Shown one piece after another: positions 1,047 through 21,205 of a stretch of 64,000 nucleotides of DNA. A program made the position numbers and the translations under genes. The notes under the pieces are model-generated. The model did no database searches. It was not told the origin of the DNA and was given only the letters and a program-made list of their open reading frames with translations. The stretch is taken from positions 3,173,135 through 3,237,134 of the forward strand of contig JAXLXH010000001.1 in NCBI GenBank assembly GCA_046328015.1. Direction: 5' to 3'. Every line of letters begins with the position of its first letter. Within the stretch, counting starts at the first letter, position 1. The stretch comes from Candidatus Sericytochromatia bacterium (lineage in GTDB: Bacteria > Cyanobacteriota > Sericytochromatia > UBA7694 > JACMQJ01).

Positions 1047-3884
1047 TTATTTACCTAGTATATATTCAAAATCGTCTTCAGTTAACGATTTTATTGATGC
1101 ATCGTCAGAAGAAATAATAGTATCAAATAGTTCTATTTTTTTCTCTTGTAATTGTAATATTTTTTCTTCTATAGTATCTTTAGTAATTAATTTGTAACTA
1201 AAAACAGTTTTATCTTGACCTATTCTGTGAGCCCTATCAATTGCTTGATTTTCTGCGGCTTTATTCCACCAAGGATCAAAGATAAAAATATAATCTGCTG
1301 CTGTAAGATTAAGACCTAATCCGCCGGTTTTTAAAGTCATTACAAAAACTTTATATTCAGGGTCATTTTGGAATTTTTCTACTATTTCAGCTCTATTTGT
1401 AGTAGATCCTGTCATAGTAAGATGTTTTATTCCTTCTTTTTCTAAATCTTTAGATATTTTATCAACTACATTTAAAAAGTTTCCAAATACTAATACTTTA
1501 TGTTTATTAGAAATAACTTCTAAAATATTTTCTATTAAAATTTCTCTTTTTGGAGATATAATAGTATCATCAGTTTTTGATTCAGGAATAGAGGCTATTT
1601 GCCTTAATTCATTAAGAGCTTGAAGAATATAGAACTGAGATTTTGAAATCCCAGAACTAGATATTTGTTCTCTTATTGATTTATAATAGAAATTTCTTCT
1701 TTGTTCATAAAATTCTTTTTGTTCTGGACTCATTTCTACAAAAATAGTTTGTTCTATTTTTTCTGGTAATTCTTTTAGAACGTCTTTTTTTAATCTTCTT
1801 AAAATAAAAGGATAAATTTTTCTTTTTAATTCTTGAGTTACTTCTTTATTATTTTCTTTTTGTATTGGATAAGCATAATTTTTATTAAAATCATCTATAG
1901 TTCCAAACATAGAAGAGTTTAAAAATCTAAATAATGAGAATAATTCACCTAAATTATTTTCAAAAGGAGTACCACTTAAAGCTAATTTATATTTAGCTTT
2001 TAAATGCATAACAGCTCTTGAAATCTGAGAAGTTGAAGTTTTTATATTTTGAGATTCATCAAGAACTACATAATAAAAATCTTCTTCTCTAAATTTATCA
2101 CTTTCATTTCTTAACATAGAATAAGTAGTTAAAATTAAATTTTTGGTTTTAGCTTCTTTTATATCCCTATTTTGACCATAAAAGCTATAATATGTAATAT
2201 TAGGAGTGAATTTTCTTATTTCATTTTCCCAGTTAAATAATAAACTTTTTGGCATTACTATTAAAGAAGGAATATCTTGTTTTTCTGGATAAATAGAAGA
2301 TAATAAAGCTAAAGTTTGAACTGTTTTACCCAAACCCATATCATCTGCCAAGCAACCACCTAATTGGTTTTTCTCTAGGTATTTTAACCATTTAAATCCT
2401 TGTTCTTGGTAGTTTCTTAAATCTGTTTTTACAGAATCTTTTTCAAATGGTATTTCATTTATATTATTAAAACCATCTAAAATTTCTCTAGATTTTTTGA
2501 AAATTTCTGGGCTTAAATTTTCATCAATAAGCTCTTCTATTATTGGTAAATCAAAAAATGATACTTTAATTTTATTTTTTTCTTTTTTGAATAATCTTTT
2601 TAATTTATCCATATAAGATTTATTTATGATAGCATTTGTACCATCTTTTAAAATAATATTAGTATTTTTATTATAATTATCTATAAAATCATGAATACTA
2701 AAAAATTCGCCTTCTAATTCAACTTCACCACTACCTTCAAGAAAATCTATTCCATGGCTTAAAGATAAATGTAATTTAGGTTTTATTGTTTTTACTTTCA
2801 TTTCAGAAAGATTTTCGGTTCCTATAACATTATATTTAGATCCTAAAACCGGAAGTTCTTTATATATAATATCTTTAGCTACATTTTCTTCTATAATAAA
2901 CGTATCATCTATATAAAAAACATTATTTTTTATAGTGTATTGTTTTTTATACTTAGAAAGTAATCTTTCAAAATCTTCTATATAAAATTCTTTATTTTTT
3001 TCTAAAATTTTACTTACAAAAATAGTTTTTAATTCATCATTAACAAAAGCATATTTAGAAATATCATAATCTTGGAATAGTTTATAATCTGTATTAGAAA
3101 TGGATTTTAAAATTTTTATGTTTAAGTTTTTATCTTTGTCTATTTTTTCTATAGATAATACAGGAGATACAGTTTTATCTTCTCCTATTACAACATCATA
3201 ATCTTTATAAAAAATATGTAATTGTTCAAAATTAGAATATAAAATAGAAAGATATTTTTCTAATTGATTGCTTTTTAAATTTATTTCTAAATCTTTTATA
3301 TTCGAAAAGTTTTTACCTATAGATTCTGTTTTATAAATTCTTGCATTTGCATAAAAATATTTTTCTGATAATGGGATAAAATGAATTAAAGTTTCTAAAC
3401 CGTTATATAAAGATAAAGTCGTAGCTAAAATACTTTCGCCTTCTATAGTTAATCTTATTTTAGATTTTTCTGTATCAAATGTAATTTTTCTAAAATTAGT
3501 ATCAACAAAGTAATTAGCCGATTCTAATTTTTCTAAAAGAGATTCATTTTCATCTAAGTAAATTTTATTATAATCTTTATTTAACCAATTAAAAGTAAGA
3601 TATTTTTTCTCGGTTATTTTCAAGATTTCTTTTACTAATTCAGAATCTTTTTTTCTTTCAAGAGCTCTAATATCTATTTCATTGTCATCTATATCAACAA
3701 CCTTTATATAAGCTCTTTTATCTAAATCGAAATTTAGTTGAAAATAGATATTATTATTTATATTACTATGATCTATTTTTTCAAATTTATCTATTTTATA
3801 CTTTTCAAAAAAATCTAATTTGCTATTACTCATTAATATTTTATTTATTACAATTTTATTTTTTAAGAAAAACACTATAAACAA
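1047..3884 (-). CDS. SNF2-family DNA/RNA helicase with ~490-aa N-terminal extension of unknown function
   Basis: Walker A LADDMGLGKT, DESQ box, helicase-C block LKTGGLGLNLTAADYIFIFDPWWNKAAENQAIDRAHRIGQ. Track start is TTG; first ATG is at codon 18 (3833). Confidence 0.85.
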   Translation of the reverse strand: MFIVFFLKNKIVINKILMSNSKLDFFEKYKIDKFEKIDHSNINNNIYFQLNFDLDKRAYIKVVDIDDNEIDIRALERKKDSELVKEILKITEKKYLTFNWLNKDYNKIYLDENESLLEKLESANYFVDTNFRKITFDTEKSKIRLTIEGESILATTLSLYNGLETLIHFIPLSEKYFYANARIYKTESIGKNFSNIKDLEINLKSNQLEKYLSILYSNFEQLHIFYKDYDVVIGEDKTVSPVLSIEKIDKDKNLNIKILKSISNTDYKLFQDYDISKYAFVNDELKTIFVSKILEKNKEFYIEDFERLLSKYKKQYTIKNNVFYIDDTFIIEENVAKDIIYKELPVLGSKYNVIGTENLSEMKVKTIKPKLHLSLSHGIDFLEGSGEVELEGEFFSIHDFIDNYNKNTNIILKDGTNAIINKSYMDKLKRLFKKEKNKIKVSFFDLPIIEELIDENLSPEIFKKSREILDGFNNINEIPFEKDSVKTDLRNYQEQGFKWLKYLEKNQLGGCLADDMGLGKTVQTLALLSSIYPEKQDIPSLIVMPKSLLFNWENEIRKFTPNITYYSFYGQNRDIKEAKTKNLILTTYSMLRNESDKFREEDFYYVVLDESQNIKTSTSQISRAVMHLKAKYKLALSGTPFENNLGELFSLFRFLNSSMFGTIDDFNKNYAYPIQKENNKEVTQELKRKIYPFILRRLKKDVLKELPEKIEQTIFVEMSPEQKEFYEQRRNFYYKSIREQISSSGISKSQFYILQALNELRQIASIPESKTDDTIISPKREILIENILEVISNKHKVLVFGNFLNVVDKISKDLEKEGIKHLTMTGSTTNRAEIVEKFQNDPEYKVFVMTLKTGGLGLNLTAADYIFIFDPWWNKAAENQAIDRAHRIGQDKTVFSYKLITKDTIEEKILQLQEKKIELFDTIISSDDASIKSLTEDDFEYILGK

Positions 3885-10289: not shown

Positions 10290-11384
10290 ATGAGAATAGA
10301 ATTAATCATAATAAGCTTAATTCATGGCTTAATTCATAGCTTAGGATTTGTAAAAGGATTTGAATTTAAAGAAATAAAAGAATTATCCTCCCCTATTTCA
10401 AAAGAAATGGGAATATTATGGTTAATTTCTAGCTTATTATTTTTACTTTACACTTCTGCTATTTTTTTTAATCATAAATACTCTTGGTTTATAGGTTTTA
10501 TAGCTGTTTTATTATCTCAATTTCTAATTATTTTATTCTGGAAAGATGCTAAATTTGGAACATTACCTAATTTTATTATATTAATTGCTTCAATAATCTC
10601 TTATGGTAATTATAGTTTTGAAAAAATGGTACAACTAGAAACTAATATAATATTAGATAAAAACAAACTTCCAAAAGAAAAATTAGTTTCTGAAAATGAT
10701 TTAAATAAATTACCTTATGCAGTAAAAAAATGGCTTAATTCTTCTGGGATTATCGGAAAACCTTATATAAACATAGGAAAAGTTTTTCAAAAAGCTGAAA
10801 TGAAACTTAAACCAGAACAAACAGATTGGCTAAAAGCTACAGCTATACAATATTCTACTATAGATAATCCTTCATTTATTTGGAGTGTTTCTGTAAAAAT
10901 GAACAATTTTATTAACTTTAAAGGTAGAGATAAATTCGAAGATGGAAAAGGTAATATGTTGATTAAATTAAATTCTATAATCAATATTGTTAATGAGAAA
11001 GGAACTAAATTAGATGAAGGAACTATACAAAGATACTTAGGAGAAATGGTTTGGTTTCCTTCATTAGCTTTAAGTCCTTATATTACTTGGAAAGAAATAA
11101 ATAAAAATACTGCAATTGCTATTATGGAATATAAAGGGACAAAATGTGATGGGACTTTTTATTTTAATAATGAAGGTGATTTTATAAAATATACAACTTT
11201 ACGCTATAAAGGTAATAAGCCTGAAGATAAACGTTATGAGTGGGTTTTATTAGTTGATGAATATAAAACTTTTAATGGCATAAAAATTCCTTCTAAGATG
11301 AAAGCTACTTGGAAATTAGAAAATACTGATTGGACTTGGTTAAAGCTTGATATTATTGACATAAAATATAATAAAGACATTTAA
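10290..11384 (+). CDS. membrane-anchored hypothetical protein
   Basis: Three N-terminal hydrophobic helices followed by ~250-aa soluble domain; no motif recognised. Confidence 0.55.
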   Translation: MRIELIIISLIHGLIHSLGFVKGFEFKEIKELSSPISKEMGILWLISSLLFLLYTSAIFFNHKYSWFIGFIAVLLSQFLIILFWKDAKFGTLPNFIILIASIISYGNYSFEKMVQLETNIILDKNKLPKEKLVSENDLNKLPYAVKKWLNSSGIIGKPYINIGKVFQKAEMKLKPEQTDWLKATAIQYSTIDNPSFIWSVSVKMNNFINFKGRDKFEDGKGNMLIKLNSIINIVNEKGTKLDEGTIQRYLGEMVWFPSLALSPYITWKEINKNTAIAIMEYKGTKCDGTFYFNNEGDFIKYTTLRYKGNKPEDKRYEWVLLVDEYKTFNGIKIPSKMKATWKLENTDWTWLKLDIIDIKYNKDI

Positions 11385-13510: not shown

Positions 13511-14143
13511 ATGGATAAAGATTTTTGGTTAACTAGATGGGAACAAAGAGAAATAGCATTTCATGGTAATGAAGCTAACCCTTTATTAATAAATAATTTT
13601 GAAAAATTGGGTTTAAAAGAGGAAAGTACAATTTTTGTGCCACTTTGTGGAAAAACCTTAGATATTGCCTGGTTACTTGCCAAAGGACATAAAATTATAG
13701 GTTGCGAATTGGTTGAAACAGCTATAAAAGAATTATTTGAAGAATTAAACTTAATACCCAAAATAACAGAATTAGGCACTATAAAACATTATAGCTATGA
13801 AAATTTAGATATTTTTGTTGGAGATGTTTTTGAACTAACTAAAGAGCATTTAGGGAAAATAGATGCTATTTATGATAGAGCTGCATTAGTTGCTTTGCCT
13901 TATGATTTAAGAATTAAATATACTAAACATCTTATAGATATTACTGAAAAAGCACCTAAATTACTTGTTGTTTATGAGTATGATCAAGAAAAATTAGATG
14001 GACCACCTTTTTCTATAACAGATGAAGAAGTAAAAAAACATTATGAAGGTATTTATACTATAAATTGTTTATCAAAAAATGAAGTTGAAGGTGGTTTAAA
14101 AGGAAAATGTCCAACAACAGAGAATGTTTGGTTAATTAAATGA
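13511..14143 (+). CDS. tpm: thiopurine S-methyltransferase family protein
   Basis: Family-typical WLTRWEQREIAFH ... IFVPLCGKTLDIAWLLAKGHKIIGCELVETAIKELFEE. Confidence 0.8.
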   Translation: MDKDFWLTRWEQREIAFHGNEANPLLINNFEKLGLKEESTIFVPLCGKTLDIAWLLAKGHKIIGCELVETAIKELFEELNLIPKITELGTIKHYSYENLDIFVGDVFELTKEHLGKIDAIYDRAALVALPYDLRIKYTKHLIDITEKAPKLLVVYEYDQEKLDGPPFSITDEEVKKHYEGIYTINCLSKNEVEGGLKGKCPTTENVWLIK

Positions 14144-14247
14144 TAAAAATAATATTTATTACTTTAAATAATCTTATATGATATAATTTTTTCTAATTTT
14201 AATTAAAAGACAAAATCTTTAAAAAATTAAGTTAAAGGTTAATAAAA

Positions 14248-15828
14248 ATGTATTTAACTAGAGGTCAAAGAATAAAGTTAGTAGATTATACAAAATCTAC
14301 TAACTTTATTATAAAAATAAAACTTCAAGGAAATAATAAAGAAGAATATGATATAAGCTGTTTTGGTTTAGATTCAGAAGAAAAGTGTTCAGATGATAAA
14401 TATATGGTATTTTATAATCAGAAAAAAACTCCATGTAACAGTATAATTATTAAAGAAGAATATTTTGATAATGAATTAAGTTTTGAAATAAATATTAATA
14501 AATTACCTGAAAAAATACAAAAAATATCTTTTACTGCAACTGTTGATGGCATTGGAGTAATGTCTGATTTAAAAGAAGGTAGCATATCTTTAATAGAAAA
14601 TTTTGAAAATAAATTTACATATAAATTTACAGGTAATGATTTTAAAAACGAAAAATCATTAATGCTAGGAGAGATTTATTTTAAAGATGAATGGAAATTT
14701 TATGCAAAAGGTTTTGGTTTTAATGGTGGATTAAGTTCTTTACTAGAATACTTTGGTATAGAAGAAGAACAAGAAATAACTAGTAATATAGAAATAATAA
14801 ATTTAAACAGTATCGTAGAAGAAGAGCCTCCTTTACCTAAAAAAAATTTAGGAGAATTTTTCAAAAATATTTTATTAACTCCTTTTAAATATGTTGAAAA
14901 AAAAATAGATGAAAAAAAAGAATTACAAGAAAGACAAAATTTAGAAGAATCTATAATTCAAAAAAAACTTAAATTTAAACAAATTCTTATAGATTATTTA
15001 TCAGATGGAGTTTTAACAAATACAGAAATGAATAATCTAGAAGTATTTTGTATTGAAAATAATATTAATATTGATGAATGCTTATATTCATCTAAGTATG
15101 AAGTTGAATCTTTTTTGAGATTACTTTTAGCTAATATTGTATCTGATTTTATTGTAACTCAAGAAGAAGAAAATACAATAAAGAGTGTTTGTTCTTTTTT
15201 GAAACCATCAATTCAAATAATTGAAGAAATTGAATCGACAATATATAGAGTTAAAGAACTCTCTAAAATAAGAAAAGGAGAAGTTTATCCAATAGATAAC
15301 CCTAAAATAATAACTAAATTAAGTGAGTTAGTTTGGTATATAGAATATAATATAAAAATATTAAAAATAACAAAGAAAGACTTAATACATTATAAAGGTG
15401 ATTTATTTGTTACTAGTGATAGATTATTATTTAAATCTCAAGATTATCCATTAGAAATATCCTTAAAAAATATTATTGATTTAGAATATAGTGGTTTGGA
15501 TTTATATATAACTGGTAATACGAATAAGTCTACTTGTCAATTTAAATTATATGAAGGTGAAAAATTACTAGCTTATATAGAACAAGCTTTAAATAAATTC
15601 CATAGAAAATTAGATTTTTCTAATTCAAATAAAAAAACAAGAACTATTCCTCAAACAGTAAGGCAAGAAGTTTGGTTAAGAGATCAAGGACAATGTGTTG
15701 AATGTTTAGCTACAGAATATTTAGAATATGATCATGTTATTCCATTTTCAAAAGGTGGTTCTAATTCAACTAATAATATTCAATTATTATGTAGAAAATG
15801 TAATTTAAAAAAAAGTGATCGTATTTAA
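14248..15828 (+). CDS. multidomain protein: N-terminal TerD domain, helical linker, bacterial PH-like domain, C-terminal HNH endonuclease
   Basis: TerD-like LTRGQRIKL...DISCFGLD...VFYNQ...GEIYFKDEWKFYAKGFGFNGGLSSL; HNH motif CVECLATEYLEYDHVIPFSKGGSNSTNNIQLLCRKCNLKKSD. Confidence 0.8.
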   Translation: MYLTRGQRIKLVDYTKSTNFIIKIKLQGNNKEEYDISCFGLDSEEKCSDDKYMVFYNQKKTPCNSIIIKEEYFDNELSFEININKLPEKIQKISFTATVDGIGVMSDLKEGSISLIENFENKFTYKFTGNDFKNEKSLMLGEIYFKDEWKFYAKGFGFNGGLSSLLEYFGIEEEQEITSNIEIINLNSIVEEEPPLPKKNLGEFFKNILLTPFKYVEKKIDEKKELQERQNLEESIIQKKLKFKQILIDYLSDGVLTNTEMNNLEVFCIENNINIDECLYSSKYEVESFLRLLLANIVSDFIVTQEEENTIKSVCSFLKPSIQIIEEIESTIYRVKELSKIRKGEVYPIDNPKIITKLSELVWYIEYNIKILKITKKDLIHYKGDLFVTSDRLLFKSQDYPLEISLKNIIDLEYSGLDLYITGNTNKSTCQFKLYEGEKLLAYIEQALNKFHRKLDFSNSNKKTRTIPQTVRQEVWLRDQGQCVECLATEYLEYDHVIPFSKGGSNSTNNIQLLCRKCNLKKSDRI

Positions 15829-15870: not shown

Positions 15871-15945
15871 TAAAAGTTTAAAATGAGAAAAACACACTAG
15901 ATTCCGTATTCTACTACGGAAGGACGAAGTGTGTTTTTATAATAA
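15871..15945 (+). repeat. palindromic repeat family C copy 2 (terminator-like)
   Basis: taaaagtttaaaatgagaaaaacacactagattccgtattctactacggaaggacgaagtgtgttttt, ~45 bp after the TerD-HNH stop. Confidence 0.65.
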
Positions 15946-16100
15946 TTTCTATTATCGTGCTCTCGAAAAAGAGGACAAAGCAGTGCTTTGCCCCTACCAA
16001 AACAATGGGTTTGGCACCAATATTTTTTGTAAAAAACAGCTTTTTGAACATATTTTCATAGTTATATTTATATTTTATTTATATGGGATTATCTATACTA

Positions 16101-18634: not shown

Positions 18635-19066
18635 ATGGCACAATCATCGGAACAATTAAACAAAAAAAAATCAGTTGGTTTAAAAATAAAATTATTATTA
18701 GGGCTGGTTGTTTTTTTGGTATTGGTTTTAGTTGGCTTAATTTTATATTTTCAATATGTTCTCTTTAAAACAAAAGCAGAAGGAATAGCAATTGGATATA
18801 AAAAAGCTATTGTAGCTGCATATCAAGCTCAAAGACCATTACCAAATACTATTTTTGAAGAAGGAAATTATAGAGTTGAAGTTAATAGCCAACAAACTTC
18901 TTCTGGGCAAATAAAAGTTTCTATTGCTGTAAGAGATAAATATTCAAATGTTAGTCATTTTAATCATGAAGATACTATAGCCTTAACTCAACAAATACCT
19001 ATGTCTATGCCACAAGTTCAATCTATTCCAGCTCCTAATACTCAAGCATCAGATCAACCAAAATAA
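18635..19066 (+). CDS. single-pass membrane protein, hypothetical
   Basis: One TM helix LLLGLVVFLVLVLVGLILYF; 4-bp gap to NUDIX gene. Confidence 0.55.
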   Translation: MAQSSEQLNKKKSVGLKIKLLLGLVVFLVLVLVGLILYFQYVLFKTKAEGIAIGYKKAIVAAYQAQRPLPNTIFEEGNYRVEVNSQQTSSGQIKVSIAVRDKYSNVSHFNHEDTIALTQQIPMSMPQVQSIPAPNTQASDQPK

Positions 19067-19069
19067 AAT

Positions 19070-19624
19070 ATGTTAGAGCTTATTAAAAATAAATTAGGTA
19101 ATAATTTATTTAAAGAAGATATTGCAAAAGAAGATTTTACTTTAGCTTCTGTGCTAATTCCTTTGTATAAGAAAAATGATAAAACTTACATCTTATTTAC
19201 AAAAAGAAGTAATAAAGTAAAACATCATAAAGGACAAATATCTTTTCCAGGTGGTAAATTTGAAACTAATGATAAAAATTTACAAGAAACTTCTCTAAGA
19301 GAAACTTATGAAGAAATAGGCGTAAAACCAGAAGATATAGAAATAATAGGTAAAATGCCTTCTATTATTACTATATCTAATTTTTATGTAACACCTTTTG
19401 TTGGTTATTTTAATTATCCATACAATTTTAAAATAAGTACCGATGAAATTGATACTTTAATTGAAGCTCCTTTAGAACATTTTTTTGATGAATCTATTTT
19501 CTGGATAGAAAATAGAGAAGTTTTTGGAAATATAAAAAAAGTTTATTTTTATTCTTATGAGGGGCATACAATTTGGGGTGCAACTGGTAAAATATTATAT
19601 GATTTATTGAGAGTGATAAGATAA
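19070..19624 (+). CDS. NUDIX hydrolase (CoA-pyrophosphatase-like)
   Basis: Nudix box GGKFETNDKNLQETSLRETYEEIGV. Confidence 0.8.
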   Translation: MLELIKNKLGNNLFKEDIAKEDFTLASVLIPLYKKNDKTYILFTKRSNKVKHHKGQISFPGGKFETNDKNLQETSLRETYEEIGVKPEDIEIIGKMPSIITISNFYVTPFVGYFNYPYNFKISTDEIDTLIEAPLEHFFDESIFWIENREVFGNIKKVYFYSYEGHTIWGATGKILYDLLRVIR

Positions 19625-19627
19625 TAT

Positions 19628-21205
19628 ATGAAACATGTTTTTTTAATTGATTCGGTTGAAAAAGAGATAAGACAAGGTAGTTCAGTACTTGGAAGAAGTT
19701 CAGATAATGCTATTTCTATATCTGAAGCTTCTGTTTCATCTAAACATTTACTTATATCTAATTTTTCTGATTATATAGAAATTTTAGATTTAAATAGTAG
19801 TAATGGTACTTTTATTAATGGAACTAAACTTAATCCTTTTATTCCTCAAAAAGTAAAAAATGGTGATAATATAACCTTAGGAAGATATACTATATCTTAT
19901 AAAGCTAATAATGATGTTTCAACTTCTTCTAAACCAGTAGTTCCTCCTCCTATGATTAATCAATCAATAAGAAAAGATGTTACTGTTATGGCTAAATTCG
20001 ATCCTAAAGAATTTATGAACTTGATTAATGAATCAAAAACAGAAACAGAAATGCAAAAAGCTAGTAAAAGATTAACTTTTTTATATTCTTTTGGACAAAA
20101 AATAGGTAAGATTATAGAGCTAAAAGATTTATTTGCTTTTGTAATAAAAGAAGTTTCAACCCTATTCCCAGAAGCTGATAGAGCTTTGATTTTTGATGTT
20201 TATGGAACAGATTATAAACCAACTTTTTTTCTTAAGAATGGTATAGATACCCCAATTGAAGAATCTAAATACTCTAAATCTATAGTTGAAATGGCAATAG
20301 AAGAGAAACATGGTTTTATTGCCTCAGATTTAAAAAGTGGACAAGATATAGATACTAGTAAATCTATTTTAGCTCTAAATTTACAATGTACCATGATAGT
20401 TCCTTTTATTGTAGATAATGAAATTTTTGGTTTATTACAATTAGATTCAACTAAAAAAATAAGTGCTTTTAATCAAGAAGATTTAACTATGTTATCTGGT
20501 ATTAGTAATCAAATAGCAGTTAATATTAAAAATAAAATGCTTATTGAAGAAATGAATAGACAAGAAAAAGTAAAAAGCTCTTTAGAAAGATATTTAGGCC
20601 CTAAAATGGTTACACATCTTATTGATAATAAAATTAATTTAGATCAAAAAGGCGAAGAAAGATTTGGAACAGTTCTATTTTCTGATATAAGAGGTTTTAC
20701 TTCATTATCAGAAAAATTAGAACCTAAACAAATAATTGAAATCTTAACTTTATATTTTAGTAAAATGACCGAAATTATCTTTAGATATGACGGTTTTATA
20801 GATAAATTTATTGGGGATGCTATTTTTTGTATATTTGGAATACCTTTATATCAAGACGATCATGCTGATAGAGCTGTAAAAACTGCTATAGAAATGAAAA
20901 AAGAATTAGAAATCTTGAATAAAACTATAGTAAGAGATTTTGGTATAGAAATAAAAATAGGTATTGGTATAAATACAGGTAAATTTGTATATGGTAATAT
21001 AGCTTCTATGGATAGACCAGAAGTAACTATTCTAGGTGATACTGTTAATACAGCAGAAAGACTATGTTCTTCTGCAAGAAAAAGTGAAATATTTATTTCT
21101 ACTGAGTGTAAAAATAATCTTCAAAATCAGTATATAATACAAGATCAAGGATTATTTTCTTTAAAAGGTAAAGAAGAAAAAGTTAATATTTATAGCATTG
21201 AATAA
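19628..21205 (+). CDS. FHA-GAF-class III adenylate/guanylate cyclase
   Basis: FHA-like LGRSSDNAISI...SSNGTFINGTKL; cyclase blocks GTVLFSDIRGFTSLSE, FIGDAIFCIFG, GDTVNTAERL. Confidence 0.8.
   Translation: MKHVFLIDSVEKEIRQGSSVLGRSSDNAISISEASVSSKHLLISNFSDYIEILDLNSSNGTFINGTKLNPFIPQKVKNGDNITLGRYTISYKANNDVSTSSKPVVPPPMINQSIRKDVTVMAKFDPKEFMNLINESKTETEMQKASKRLTFLYSFGQKIGKIIELKDLFAFVIKEVSTLFPEADRALIFDVYGTDYKPTFFLKNGIDTPIEESKYSKSIVEMAIEEKHGFIASDLKSGQDIDTSKSILALNLQCTMIVPFIVDNEIFGLLQLDSTKKISAFNQEDLTMLSGISNQIAVNIKNKMLIEEMNRQEKVKSSLERYLGPKMVTHLIDNKINLDQKGEERFGTVLFSDIRGFTSLSEKLEPKQIIEILTLYFSKMTEIIFRYDGFIDKFIGDAIFCIFGIPLYQDDHADRAVKTAIEMKKELEILNKTIVRDFGIEIKIGIGINTGKFVYGNIASMDRPEVTILGDTVNTAERLCSSARKSEIFISTECKNNLQNQYIIQDQGLFSLKGKEEKVNIYSIE

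What the first reader, a model, noticed from the sequence alone, without database searches (positions are those of the whole stretch)
14248..15828. Unusual single-polypeptide fusion of a TerD domain, a PH-like domain and an HNH endonuclease
The N-terminal ~175 aa match the TerD stress-protein signature and the last ~60 aa are a canonical HNH nuclease, with a helical region and a GRAM/bacterial-PH-like segment (DLIHYKGDLFVTSDRLLFKSQDYPLEISLKNIIDLEYSGLDLYITG) between. TerD proteins are normally stand-alone; a covalent link to a nuclease suggests a signal-gated DNA-cleaving protein, possibly defence- or stress-related.
Basis: partly seen in the sequence, partly recalled or inferred. Interest (0 to 1): 0.6.

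Follow-up and report, generated by a model that had tools for sequence, protein, structure and literature searches.

The report
TerD–TerB–PH–HNH single-protein nuclease
This is a real, intact gene for a four-domain protein that joins two "tellurite-resistance" type sensor domains (TerD and TerB-like) and a PH-like domain to a DNA-cutting HNH nuclease; its relatives travel as a single gene, often inside prophages, so it is most likely an uncharacterised signal-gated anti-phage nuclease.

Summary
Window 14248-15828 (+) is one intact 526-aa ORF with a TerD domain (Pfam E=2.9e-26), a PH/GRAM-like domain (confirmed by fold) and a C-terminal HNH nuclease (E=8.5e-13) whose Cys4 zinc site and D-H...N...N catalytic residues are all present.

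About 20 full-length homologues (39-59% identity) keep the whole architecture. TerB-like-PH-HNH is the conserved core of a larger family: 703 representative clusters, most of the best hits lacking TerD. TerD is one of several interchangeable N-terminal modules (18 of 146 clusters examined). Many diverse members match PADLOC's untested single-gene phage-defence candidate PDC-S48; the query itself matches only weakly.

No neighbouring gene is conserved. Relatives repeatedly sit in prophage accessory or lysogeny loci, beside Arc-like repressors, antirepressors or integrases.

The TerD domain lacks the canonical Ca2+-binding loop, so Ca2+ gating as in Klebsiella TerD is doubtful.

Best reading (confidence about 0.55): a single-polypeptide sensor-effector conflict nuclease. 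It is a new variant of a known kind and of moderate interest.

The parts
14248..15828 (+). Complete ORF, 526 aa plus stop: TerD - linker - TerB-like - PH-like - HNH
14248..14763 (+). TerD domain (residues 1-172), beta-sandwich. It belongs to the 'DISCFGLD...SDDRYFIFYNQ' subfamily that lacks the canonical Ca2+-binding loop.
   Evidence: Pfam TerD E=2.9e-26. Foldseek hits to 3ibz, 2kxt and 9a6r_B. Alignment with 2kxt shows a 5-residue deletion in the Ca2+ loop.
14764..14892 (+). Variable, low-confidence linker (residues 173-215); its length and sequence are not conserved among homologues
   Evidence: pLDDT <50 for residues 174-215; gapped, variable columns in A1
14893..15282 (+). Long helix followed by a TerB-like helical bundle (residues 216-345), with repeated motifs LSDGVLTxxEM and IVSDxIVTxEEE
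   Evidence: AF2 model of residues 236-345 has pLDDT 92. Pfam TerB is the commonest hit, 6/18 members with best E=1.8e-4, plus DUF533 at 2.5e-4. A family HMM of this region hits stretches that Pfam calls TerB above threshold in divergent relatives P0070, P0034, P0065 and P0054. The Deinococcus homologue gives TerB E=4e-4.
15310..15612 (+). PH/GRAM/GLUE-like domain (residues 355-455) with the motif G-D-L-F-V-T-S-D-R-L-L-F and a C-terminal helix
   Evidence: Foldseek hits to Vps36 GLUE 2cay, Lam6 5yqr and MTMR2. GRAM matches 14/20 and Vps36_ESCRT-II 12/20 homologues.
15640..15825 (+). HNH (beta-beta-alpha-Me) nuclease domain (residues 465-526). It carries Cys4 (C483, C486, C515, C518) and catalytic D495-H496, N510 and N519.
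   Evidence: Pfam HNH E=8.5e-13. These residues are invariant in 20 and in 60 relatives. The motif is intact in 131/134 family members. Closest solved structures are 4h9d, McrA 6ghc and IscB.
14179..14239 (+). Possible own expression signals: extended -10-like TGATATAAT (14179-14187) and AAAGG ribosome-binding site (14235-14239). This is weak evidence in a 22% GC region.
   Evidence: read from sequence; the consensus scan found no full -35/-10 promoter here
15888..15943 (+). Strong hairpin followed by a U-run, about 60 nt after the stop codon: the likely intrinsic terminator of the gene
   Evidence: RNA fold -19.9 kcal/mol, z=-5.0 against shuffles

Best explanation
The gene encodes a stand-alone, single-polypeptide sensor-effector nuclease of the biological-conflict (anti-phage or superinfection-exclusion) type.

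Shown:
- There are four folded modules in one ORF.
- The HNH active site and zinc site are intact and under strong conservation.
- TerB-like-PH-HNH is a conserved core to which different N-terminal modules, TerD among them, are attached.
- The gene moves as a single-gene cassette with no conserved partner.
- It is recurrently found in prophage accessory or lysogeny loci.
- Diverse relatives match the PADLOC defence candidate PDC-S48.

Inferred:
- The C-terminal HNH is a non-specific DNA nickase or cutter that is kept inactive in the resting state.
- The TerB-like and PH-like pair forms the constant regulatory and/or membrane-proximal localisation unit. TerB proteins are reported to be amphitropic, and GRAM/PH domains bind lipids or peptides.
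- The N-terminal TerD is the variable input domain. It would bind a trigger: a small ligand such as a nucleotide-like metabolite, a metal ion at a non-canonical site, or a phage product.
- Trigger binding releases the nuclease, which destroys incoming phage DNA and/or host DNA (abortive infection).
For: Domain calls and fold.

Conserved full-length family of about 20 sequences at 39-59% identity.

Catalytic and Zn residues are invariant in 60 diverse relatives, and the motif is intact in 131/134.

The core family has 703 representative clusters at E<=1e-3 and 164 at E<=1e-10. Among 146 clusters, 94 have core plus HNH without TerD and 18 have TerD.

PADLOC PDC-S48 models match 40/60 (best 4.5e-36) and 19/60 (best 3e-22) diverse members. 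PDCs are untested candidates found embedded in BREX, DISARM and type I RM loci.

Contexts:
- No synteny with the window's neighbours and no conserved neighbour among the closest homologues.
- P0020 lies in a phage-like contig with a GH19 endolysin, Arc and a P22 antirepressor.
- P0014 lies beside an integrase fragment and a PIN/PhD pair.
- Four IMG/VR viral contigs carry the full architecture and at least five more carry the core.
- In the L091/L092/L012 prophage loci (L012 is from an Acinetobacter genome), the gene follows an Arc-like repressor inside an antirepressor-rich insertion in the tail-gene module.
- In Deinococcus alpinitundrae it abuts the integrase, downstream of CI/LexA-like repressors.
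- In L100 it lies among an RDF, Ant and an Hdf-like antirestriction gene.

Literature: TerB domains occur in the validated defence systems Shango, Bunzi and Dionysus. TerD is proposed to sense specialised nucleotide derivatives. Ter genes are implicated in phage exclusion.
Against: - No experiment exists for any member, and PDC-S48 itself is untested.
- The query matches PDC-S48 only weakly: E=3e-4, over the TerB-like region only.
- The window copy is not in a recognisable defence island or prophage. Its neighbours are TPMT, GNAT, cupin, TetR and MFS genes, and its GC content matches the surroundings.
- Several of the closest homologues are also in ordinary chromosomal contexts.
- Autoinhibition, the trigger and membrane association are all inferred. 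pTM is 0.49 and no inter-domain confidence was available.
- No phage-association baseline was computed.
Confidence: 0.55

Rival explanations
1. It is a stress-response nuclease of the Ter system. TerD and TerB sense metal, tellurite, Ca2+ or oxidative stress, and the HNH then processes host DNA for repair or programmed growth arrest. On this reading it is host physiology, not antiviral defence.
For: TerD and TerB are the signature domains of tellurite-resistance operons, and Klebsiella TerD binds Ca2+. The gene directly upstream in the window is a TPMT-type methyltransferase; that bacterial TPMTs detoxify tellurite and selenite is from my own knowledge. The window copy and several close homologues sit among ordinary chromosomal genes.
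Against: No other ter gene or TerD/TerB paralogue is present in the 64-kb window. The TPMT adjacency is not seen in any of 27 homologue loci. The canonical Ca2+ loop is missing. Location in prophage accessory loci and the PDC-S48 link are not expected for a housekeeping repair enzyme.
Confidence: 0.15
2. It is a phage weapon rather than a host defence. On this reading the protein degrades host or competitor DNA during lytic growth. Alternatively, it is a modification-dependent (type IV, McrA-like) restriction nuclease whose N-terminal domains read DNA rather than a small signal.
For: Many relatives are encoded on viral contigs or prophages. The HNH resembles McrA and type II/IV restriction HNH models: PADLOC REase_II matches 53/60 and mREase_IV 33/60 members, and McrA 6ghc is among the closest solved structures.
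Against: In the phage contexts the gene sits beside lysogeny-type regulators (Arc-like, CI-like, integrase), as prophage-expressed morons do, and not in early or host-takeover modules. No known DNA-modification reader domain (SRA, PUA-like, SBD) was detected. The restriction-model matches cover only the roughly 60-aa HNH. Chromosomal copies exist without any phage genes nearby.
Confidence: 0.17
3. It is a selfish homing endonuclease or a phage DNA-packaging HNH cofactor that happens to carry extra domains.
For: Small HNH domains of this type are common as homing and terminase-associated nucleases in phages.
Against: The gene is not inserted in or next to a conserved target gene and is not adjacent to a terminase in any locus examined. 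About 460 residues of conserved non-nuclease domains are not explained. No full-length match exists in 50,697 GenBank phage records.
Confidence: 0.03

Closest known systems
PADLOC phage-defence candidate PDC-S48 (models PDLC05027 and PDLC05028), a single-gene candidate from the guilt-by-embedding screen (bioRxiv 10.1101/2024.01.29.577857)
   Same: The broader TerB-like-PH-HNH family, of which the query is a member, matches these models: 40/60 diverse members with best E=4.5e-36, and 19/60 with best E=3e-22. Both are single-gene, and both have an HNH effector.
   Different: The query itself matches only at E=3e-4 over about 86 of 411 profile positions, in the TerB-like region. It carries an extra N-terminal TerD domain. 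The window copy is not embedded in a BREX, DISARM or RM locus. PDC-S48 has no experimental validation, and I found no published description of its domains.
TerB-containing anti-phage systems Shango (SngA), Bunzi (BnzA) and Dionysus (DinB)
   Same: They use a TerB-type domain in a defence context. TerB is proposed to act in membrane surveillance or sensing.
   Different: Those are multi-gene systems in which TerB is a separate protein working with other components; in Dionysus these are a membrane protein and a pore-forming toxin. Here TerB-like is fused in cis to a PH-like domain and an HNH nuclease, and no neighbour is conserved.
Classical TerD proteins of the terZABCDE tellurite-resistance / phage-inhibition operon (for example Klebsiella TerD, PDB 2kxt; Streptomyces 3ibz)
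   Same: Same fold and a clear sequence family match.
   Different: Classical TerD is a roughly 190-aa stand-alone protein with two Ca2+ sites built largely from the GDN(R/L)TG(E/A)GDGDDE loop. The query's TerD lacks that loop, is not in a ter operon and is the N-terminal module of a nuclease.
Multidomain TerD fusions: TerD-vWA (Polaromonas plasmid pPNAP04; the name 'TerF-like' is from my own knowledge) and TerD-AIM24 of Streptomyces
   Same: These are the closest TerD sequences to the query (41-45% identity). They share the DISCFGLD...SDDRYFIFYNQ signature and the missing Ca2+ loop, and TerD is again N-terminal to a different C-terminal module.
   Different: Their C-terminal modules are vWA or AIM24, not TerB-PH-HNH, and none is a nuclease.
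Small Cys4 HNH nucleases: Geobacter Gmet_0936 (4h9d), E. coli McrA (6ghc) and the HNH of IscB/Cas9
   Same: Same beta-beta-alpha-Me core with a CxxC...DH...N...CxxC-N/H pattern.
   Different: Those have no TerD, TerB or PH domains. McrA, IscB and Cas9 obtain targeting from other domains or from RNA.

Membership tests
TerD (Pfam PF02342) | Sequence match above the curated threshold over the whole domain | tested here: met
   92.5 bits against a cut-off of 25.3, covering profile positions 4-187 of 187; 20/20 homologues match
TerD (Pfam PF02342) | TerD beta-sandwich fold | tested here: met
   Foldseek hits to 3ibz, 2kxt and 9a6r_B, E 1e-10 to 4e-13, target TM-score 0.72-0.76
Classical Ca2+-binding TerD of ter operons | Ca2+ sites formed by residues 40-42, 78, 79, 82, 84, 88 and 89, that is, the GDN(R/L)TG(E/A)GDGDDE loop | tested here: not met
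   Five residues of the loop are deleted and the remainder is non-acidic and variable in the family. Site residues are as cited in PMC8779313. Only D35, equivalent to D42, is invariant.
Classical Ca2+-binding TerD of ter operons | Encoded in a ter operon with terZ/A/B/C/E or telA | tested here: not met
   No ter-type genes were found among the 20 neighbouring ORFs scanned. No second TerD or TerB-like sequence is present in the window.
HNH nuclease (Pfam PF01844 / HNH_5) | Sequence match above threshold | tested here: met
   HNH 48.7 bits against 21.4; HNH_5 41.5 bits against 27.5
HNH nuclease (Pfam PF01844 / HNH_5) | Catalytic D-H, structural N, metal-binding N/H and a Cys4 zinc site | tested here: met
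   C483, C486, D495, H496, N510, C515, C518 and N519 are invariant in 20 and in 60 relatives. The motif is intact in 131/134 members.
HNH nuclease (Pfam PF01844 / HNH_5) | DNA cleavage activity | not testable with these tools
   Requires a biochemical assay
TerB domain (Pfam PF05099, TerB clan) | Sequence match to the TerB profile | tested here: inconclusive
   The query itself has no hit at E<=1. TerB is the commonest hit among homologues' middle domains, 6/18 with best E=1.8e-4, and DUF533 reaches 2.5e-4. The family HMM of this region overlaps above-threshold Pfam TerB hits in P0070 (72.7 bits), P0034 (38.9), P0065 and P0054. The repeated D-G-x-[LI]-[TS]-x-x-E motif is present.
TerB domain (Pfam PF05099, TerB clan) | Fold similarity to solved TerB | tested here: inconclusive
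PH-like / GRAM / GLUE domain | PH-like beta-sandwich capped by a C-terminal helix | tested here: met
   The model has seven strands plus helix 437-453. Foldseek hits Vps36 GLUE 2cay (target TM-score 0.59), Lam6 and MTMR2.
PH-like / GRAM / GLUE domain | Pfam GRAM or Vps36 match above threshold | tested here: inconclusive
   The query scores 14.6 bits on GRAM against a cut-off of 23.6. Among homologues GRAM matches 14/20 and Vps36_ESCRT-II 12/20, best E=1.8e-6. PF11605 is precomputed for P0017 and P0018.
PADLOC PDC-S48 candidate | Match to the PDC-S48 HMMs | tested here: inconclusive
   The query matches at E=3e-4 and only partially. Relatives match 40/60, up to E=4.5e-36.
PADLOC PDC-S48 candidate | Embedded in or adjacent to known defence systems | tested here: not met
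   The window's neighbours are TPMT, GNAT, cupin, TetR and MFS genes. This was tested for the window copy only.
Shango / Bunzi / Dionysus (TerB defence systems) | Multi-gene operon with partner genes next to the TerB gene (partner types for Shango and Bunzi are from my own knowledge; Dionysus partners) | tested here: not met
   No conserved neighbour in 8 close-homologue loci or in the window
Type IV (McrA-like) restriction nuclease | DNA-modification reader domain joined to HNH | tested here: not met
   No SRA, PUA or SBD-type domain was detected. The PADLOC mREase_IV match is confined to residues 490-519.
Phage terminase-associated / homing HNH | Adjacent to terminase or inserted in a target gene | tested here: not met
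   In the phage loci examined the neighbours are Arc-like, antirepressor, integrase, RDF and tail genes

The most novel reading that the evidence does not exclude
TerD and TerB are general signal-receiver modules of a Ter-type alarm pathway, responding to a nucleoside-like metabolite or an ion flux caused by phage entry at the membrane. This protein would then be the first case in which both receivers are wired in cis to an enzymatic output. It would give a one-protein assay (DNA cleavage or toxicity) for the decades-old question of what the Ter proteins actually sense.
Probability: 0.15. Interest if true: 0.75.

Novelty: new variant of a known kind. Interest (0 to 1): 0.5.

Why it matters
What TerD and TerB actually sense remains unresolved in the papers consulted: TerD is proposed to recognise specialised nucleotide derivatives, and how TerB-containing defence proteins protect is stated to be unclear. 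A natural fusion of both domains to a nuclease with an easy read-out argues that they act as input domains of an immune or conflict effector.

It also offers a compact experimental handle. Domain deletions, ligand screens and phage-escape mutants could identify the trigger. The finding further shows that an untested PADLOC candidate family (PDC-S48-like TerB-PH-HNH proteins) is large, modular at its N-terminus and frequently phage-borne. That helps to prioritise it for validation.

Tried and rejected
- The afdb50 library was unavailable.
- The key comparative paper on Ter systems (Anantharaman, Iyer and Aravind 2012, PMC4104200) is not held. I therefore cannot exclude that TerD/TerB-HNH fusions were already noted there.
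- Literature searches for TerD+HNH+TerB, 'TerB domain'+HNH, 'TerD domain'+nuclease+defense and PDC-S48 found no description of this architecture.
- I considered a functional link to the upstream TPMT gene, since both relate to tellurite. I rejected it because none of the window's 12 neighbours is found in any of 27 homologue loci.
- I considered a family-specific cysteine metal site (C38, C47, C63). I dropped it because C47 and C63 are not conserved in the wider TerD subfamily.
- I considered Ca2+ gating through the canonical TerD site and rejected it.
- tblastn against 50,697 GenBank phage records gave no full-length match.
- Cluster look-up gave no informative names.
Full report
**1. Observation**

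The window has a single open reading frame at 14248..15828 on the + strand. It starts with ATG and encodes 526 aa, exactly as reported. The opposite strand is closed.

Pfam gives:
- TerD at residues 2-169: E=2.9e-26, 92.5 bits against a cut-off of 25.3, covering the whole profile.
- HNH at 483-525: E=8.5e-13. HNH_5 and HNH_4 also match.
- GRAM at 377-425: only a sub-threshold hit, E=0.03.

NCBIfam sees only the HNH, through the IscB and Cas9 HNH regions. The exact sequence exists in NCBI as 'MAG: TerD family protein [Candidatus Sericytochromatia bacterium]' on a 3.55-Mb contig. The window is about 24% GC throughout and the gene does not stand out in composition.

**2. Anatomy**

Twenty full-length homologues (39-59% identity) align end to end, with invariant residues in every part. 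This excludes a frameshifted two-gene artefact.

An AlphaFold2 model built on that alignment has mean pLDDT 79.8. It shows:
- a beta-sandwich at residues 1-170;
- a disordered, length-variable linker at 174-215;
- a long helix and helical bundle at 212-342;
- a seven-stranded sandwich capped by a helix at 362-453;
- a small beta-beta-alpha unit at 469-525.

Foldseek against the PDB returns solved TerD proteins first (9a6r_B, 3ibz, 2kxt; E 4e-13 to 1e-10). PH-like domains follow: Vps36 GLUE 2cay, Lam6, myotubularin GRAM-PH and DH-PH modules. In the homologues, GRAM matches 14/20 and Vps36-GLUE 12/20, best E=1.8e-6.

The HNH has a Cys4 zinc site (C483, C486, C515, C518), D495-H496, N510 and N519. 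All of these are invariant in 20 close and 60 diverse relatives, and the motif is intact in 131 of 134 family members. The closest solved relatives are the Geobacter HNH 4h9d, McrA and IscB.

**3. The 'helical region' is TerB-like**

The region carries two copies of a D-G-x-[LI]-T-x-x-E type motif: LSDGVLTxxEM and IVSDxIVTxEEE. Scanned alone, TerB is the commonest Pfam hit among members (6/18, best E=1.8e-4). DUF533 reaches 2.5e-4 in one member.

An HMM built only from this region of the 20-member family hits stretches in divergent relatives that Pfam independently calls TerB above its threshold. These are P0070 at 72.7 bits, P0034 at 38.9 bits, P0065 and P0054. The Deinococcus full-length homologue gives TerB E=4e-4.

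**4. The evolutionary unit**

A profile of the TerB-like plus PH region was searched against 1.84 billion representative proteins. It found 703 clusters at E<=1e-3 and 164 at E<=1e-10.

I annotated the 146 new representatives with family-derived HMMs:

| Architecture | Clusters |
|---|---|
| Core plus the same HNH, no TerD | 94 |
| Carry TerD (16 with all four modules) | 18 |
| No HNH; some may be fragments | 34 |

The non-TerD members have N-terminal extensions of 0-300 aa. These include extra TerB-like repeats that Pfam labels TerB or Tic110. TerB-like-PH-HNH is therefore a constant module and the N-terminus is exchangeable.

Conversely, the query's TerD belongs to a subfamily whose nearest relatives (41-45% identity) are also N-terminal modules of multidomain proteins:
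- TerD-vWA on a Polaromonas plasmid;
- TerD-AIM24 in many Streptomyces;
- a 391-aa protein on a Spartinivicinus plasmid.

The whole subfamily shares DISCFGLD...SDDRYFIFYNQ. It lacks the GDN(R/L)TG(E/A)GDGDDE loop that supplies most Ca2+ ligands in Klebsiella TerD. Five residues are deleted and the rest is variable (ligand positions from PMC8779313).

**5. Context**

In the window the gene is flanked by a TPMT methyltransferase upstream on the same strand, with a 104-bp gap. Further upstream are GNAT, cupin, TetR, DUF6544 and thioredoxin-like genes. Downstream lies a convergent MFS transporter.

A strong hairpin with a U-run follows the stop codon. No other TerD, TerB-like, PH or HNH sequence of this type occurs in the 64 kb. 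None of 12 window neighbours recurs in 27 homologue loci.

The closest homologues have unrelated neighbours. The exceptions are P0014, beside an integrase fragment and a PIN/PhD pair, and P0020, in a phage-like contig with a GH19 endolysin, Arc, a P22-type antirepressor and a glycine-rich tail-fibre-like protein.

More distant full-length relatives are strikingly phage-linked:
- Four IMG/VR viral contigs carry TerD-TerB-PH-HNH and at least five carry the core.
- In the L091/L092/L012 loci (two IMG/VR contigs and an Acinetobacter genome), the gene directly follows an Arc-like ribbon-helix-helix gene. It lies between antirepressor genes, inside the tail-gene module and on the opposite strand to it, which is a typical moron locus.
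- In Deinococcus alpinitundrae it overlaps the start of a tyrosine integrase by 4 bp and lies downstream of two CI/LexA-like S24 repressors.
- In L100 it lies among an RDF, an antirepressor and an Hdf-like antirestriction gene.

No full-length copy exists in 50,697 GenBank phage genomes.

**6. Link to known defence catalogues**

PADLOC models for the query alone gave only weak hits: the HNH matched type II/IV restriction models, and PDC-S48 matched at E=3e-4 over the TerB-like region.

I then scanned 60 diverse family members. PDC-S48 model PDLC05027 matched 40 (best 4.5e-36) and PDLC05028 matched 19 (best 3e-22). PDC systems are 145 untested candidates proposed because they are embedded in BREX, DISARM or type I RM loci. 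I found no text describing PDC-S48 itself.

TerB domains occur in the validated systems Shango, Bunzi and Dionysus, where they are suspected of membrane surveillance. TerD has been proposed to recognise specialised nucleotide derivatives. Ter genes on phages have been proposed to exclude superinfecting phages.

**7. Mechanism**

Shown: the architecture; an intact, conserved nuclease site; a constant TerB-PH-HNH core with a swappable N-terminus; single-gene mobility; frequent prophage accessory location; and a match of the wider family to a defence candidate.

Inferred: the HNH is a latent non-specific DNA nuclease. The TerB-like/PH pair regulates and/or localises it, possibly at the membrane. 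TerD is the input domain that binds a trigger and releases the nuclease, giving destruction of invading DNA or abortive infection. I put this at about 0.55.

Rivals:
- A Ter-type physiological stress nuclease (0.15). It is weakened by the absence of ter genes, the non-conserved TPMT adjacency and the missing Ca2+ loop.
- A phage offensive or modification-dependent restriction nuclease (0.17). It is weakened by the lysogeny-type neighbourhood and the lack of any DNA-reader domain.
- A homing or packaging HNH (0.03).

**8. Novelty and verdict**

The sequence is already deposited, and the wider family overlaps an untested PADLOC candidate. TerB-in-defence and TerD fusions are both known themes.

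What appears undescribed in the literature I could search is the cis combination TerD + TerB-like + PH-like + HNH, together with the recognition that TerD is one of several swappable sensors on a conserved TerB-PH-HNH nuclease core. The 2012 Aravind-lab Ter paper could not be read, so prior mention cannot be excluded.

I rate it a new variant of a known kind, with interest 0.5. It is not categorically new, but it is a useful and compact handle on what Ter domains sense.

Noticed in passing
window 13511-14143 (+): A TPMT-family methyltransferase (Pfam E=8e-59) lies directly upstream of the TerD-HNH gene. It is a tempting 'tellurite' pairing, but it is not conserved in any homologue locus.
   Followed up: yes
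window 18635-21205 (+): A possible signalling operon: an unknown 143-aa ORF, a NUDIX hydrolase, then an FHA-GAF-adenylate/guanylate cyclase (525 aa).
   Followed up: no
window 1047-3884 (-): A 945-aa SNF2-family helicase (SNF2-rel_dom, Helicase_C, ResIII) with a long unannotated N-terminal half of about 490 aa.
   Followed up: no
window 15972-15994 (-) and 15888-15943 (+): Convergent terminator-like hairpins lie between the TerD-HNH gene and the MFS transporter gene. The + strand hairpin folds at -19.9 kcal/mol with z=-5.
   Followed up: partly
L091 9718-9948, L092 1189-1419, L012 9693-9947: A conserved Arc-like ribbon-helix-helix gene (N-terminus MARNDPQMNLRVP...) sits immediately upstream of the TerD-TerB-PH-HNH gene in these prophage-type loci (L012 is from an Acinetobacter genome). 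This suggests the nuclease gene is under repressor control.
   Followed up: partly
L007 2928-3161 and L100 9661-9906: Small ORFs (77-81 aa) with predicted transmembrane segments lie directly upstream of the homologue in two phage-like contigs. They could be membrane partners or chance ORFs.
   Followed up: no
P0006 (601 aa; loci L005, L006): One close homologue has a tandem duplication of the TerB-like domain. Many non-TerD relatives of about 447 aa also carry two or three TerB-like repeats.
   Followed up: partly
L013 6753-7949: In Deinococcus alpinitundrae, two adjacent CI/LexA-like S24 peptidase repressor genes and a tyrosine integrase bracket the homologue. This marks the end of an integrated element.
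   Followed up: partly
window 10290-11384 (+): A 364-aa protein matches both DUF6544 and DUF6920 strongly (E about 1e-70). It lies next to a thioredoxin-like gene and a TetR regulator. Its function is unknown.
   Followed up: no
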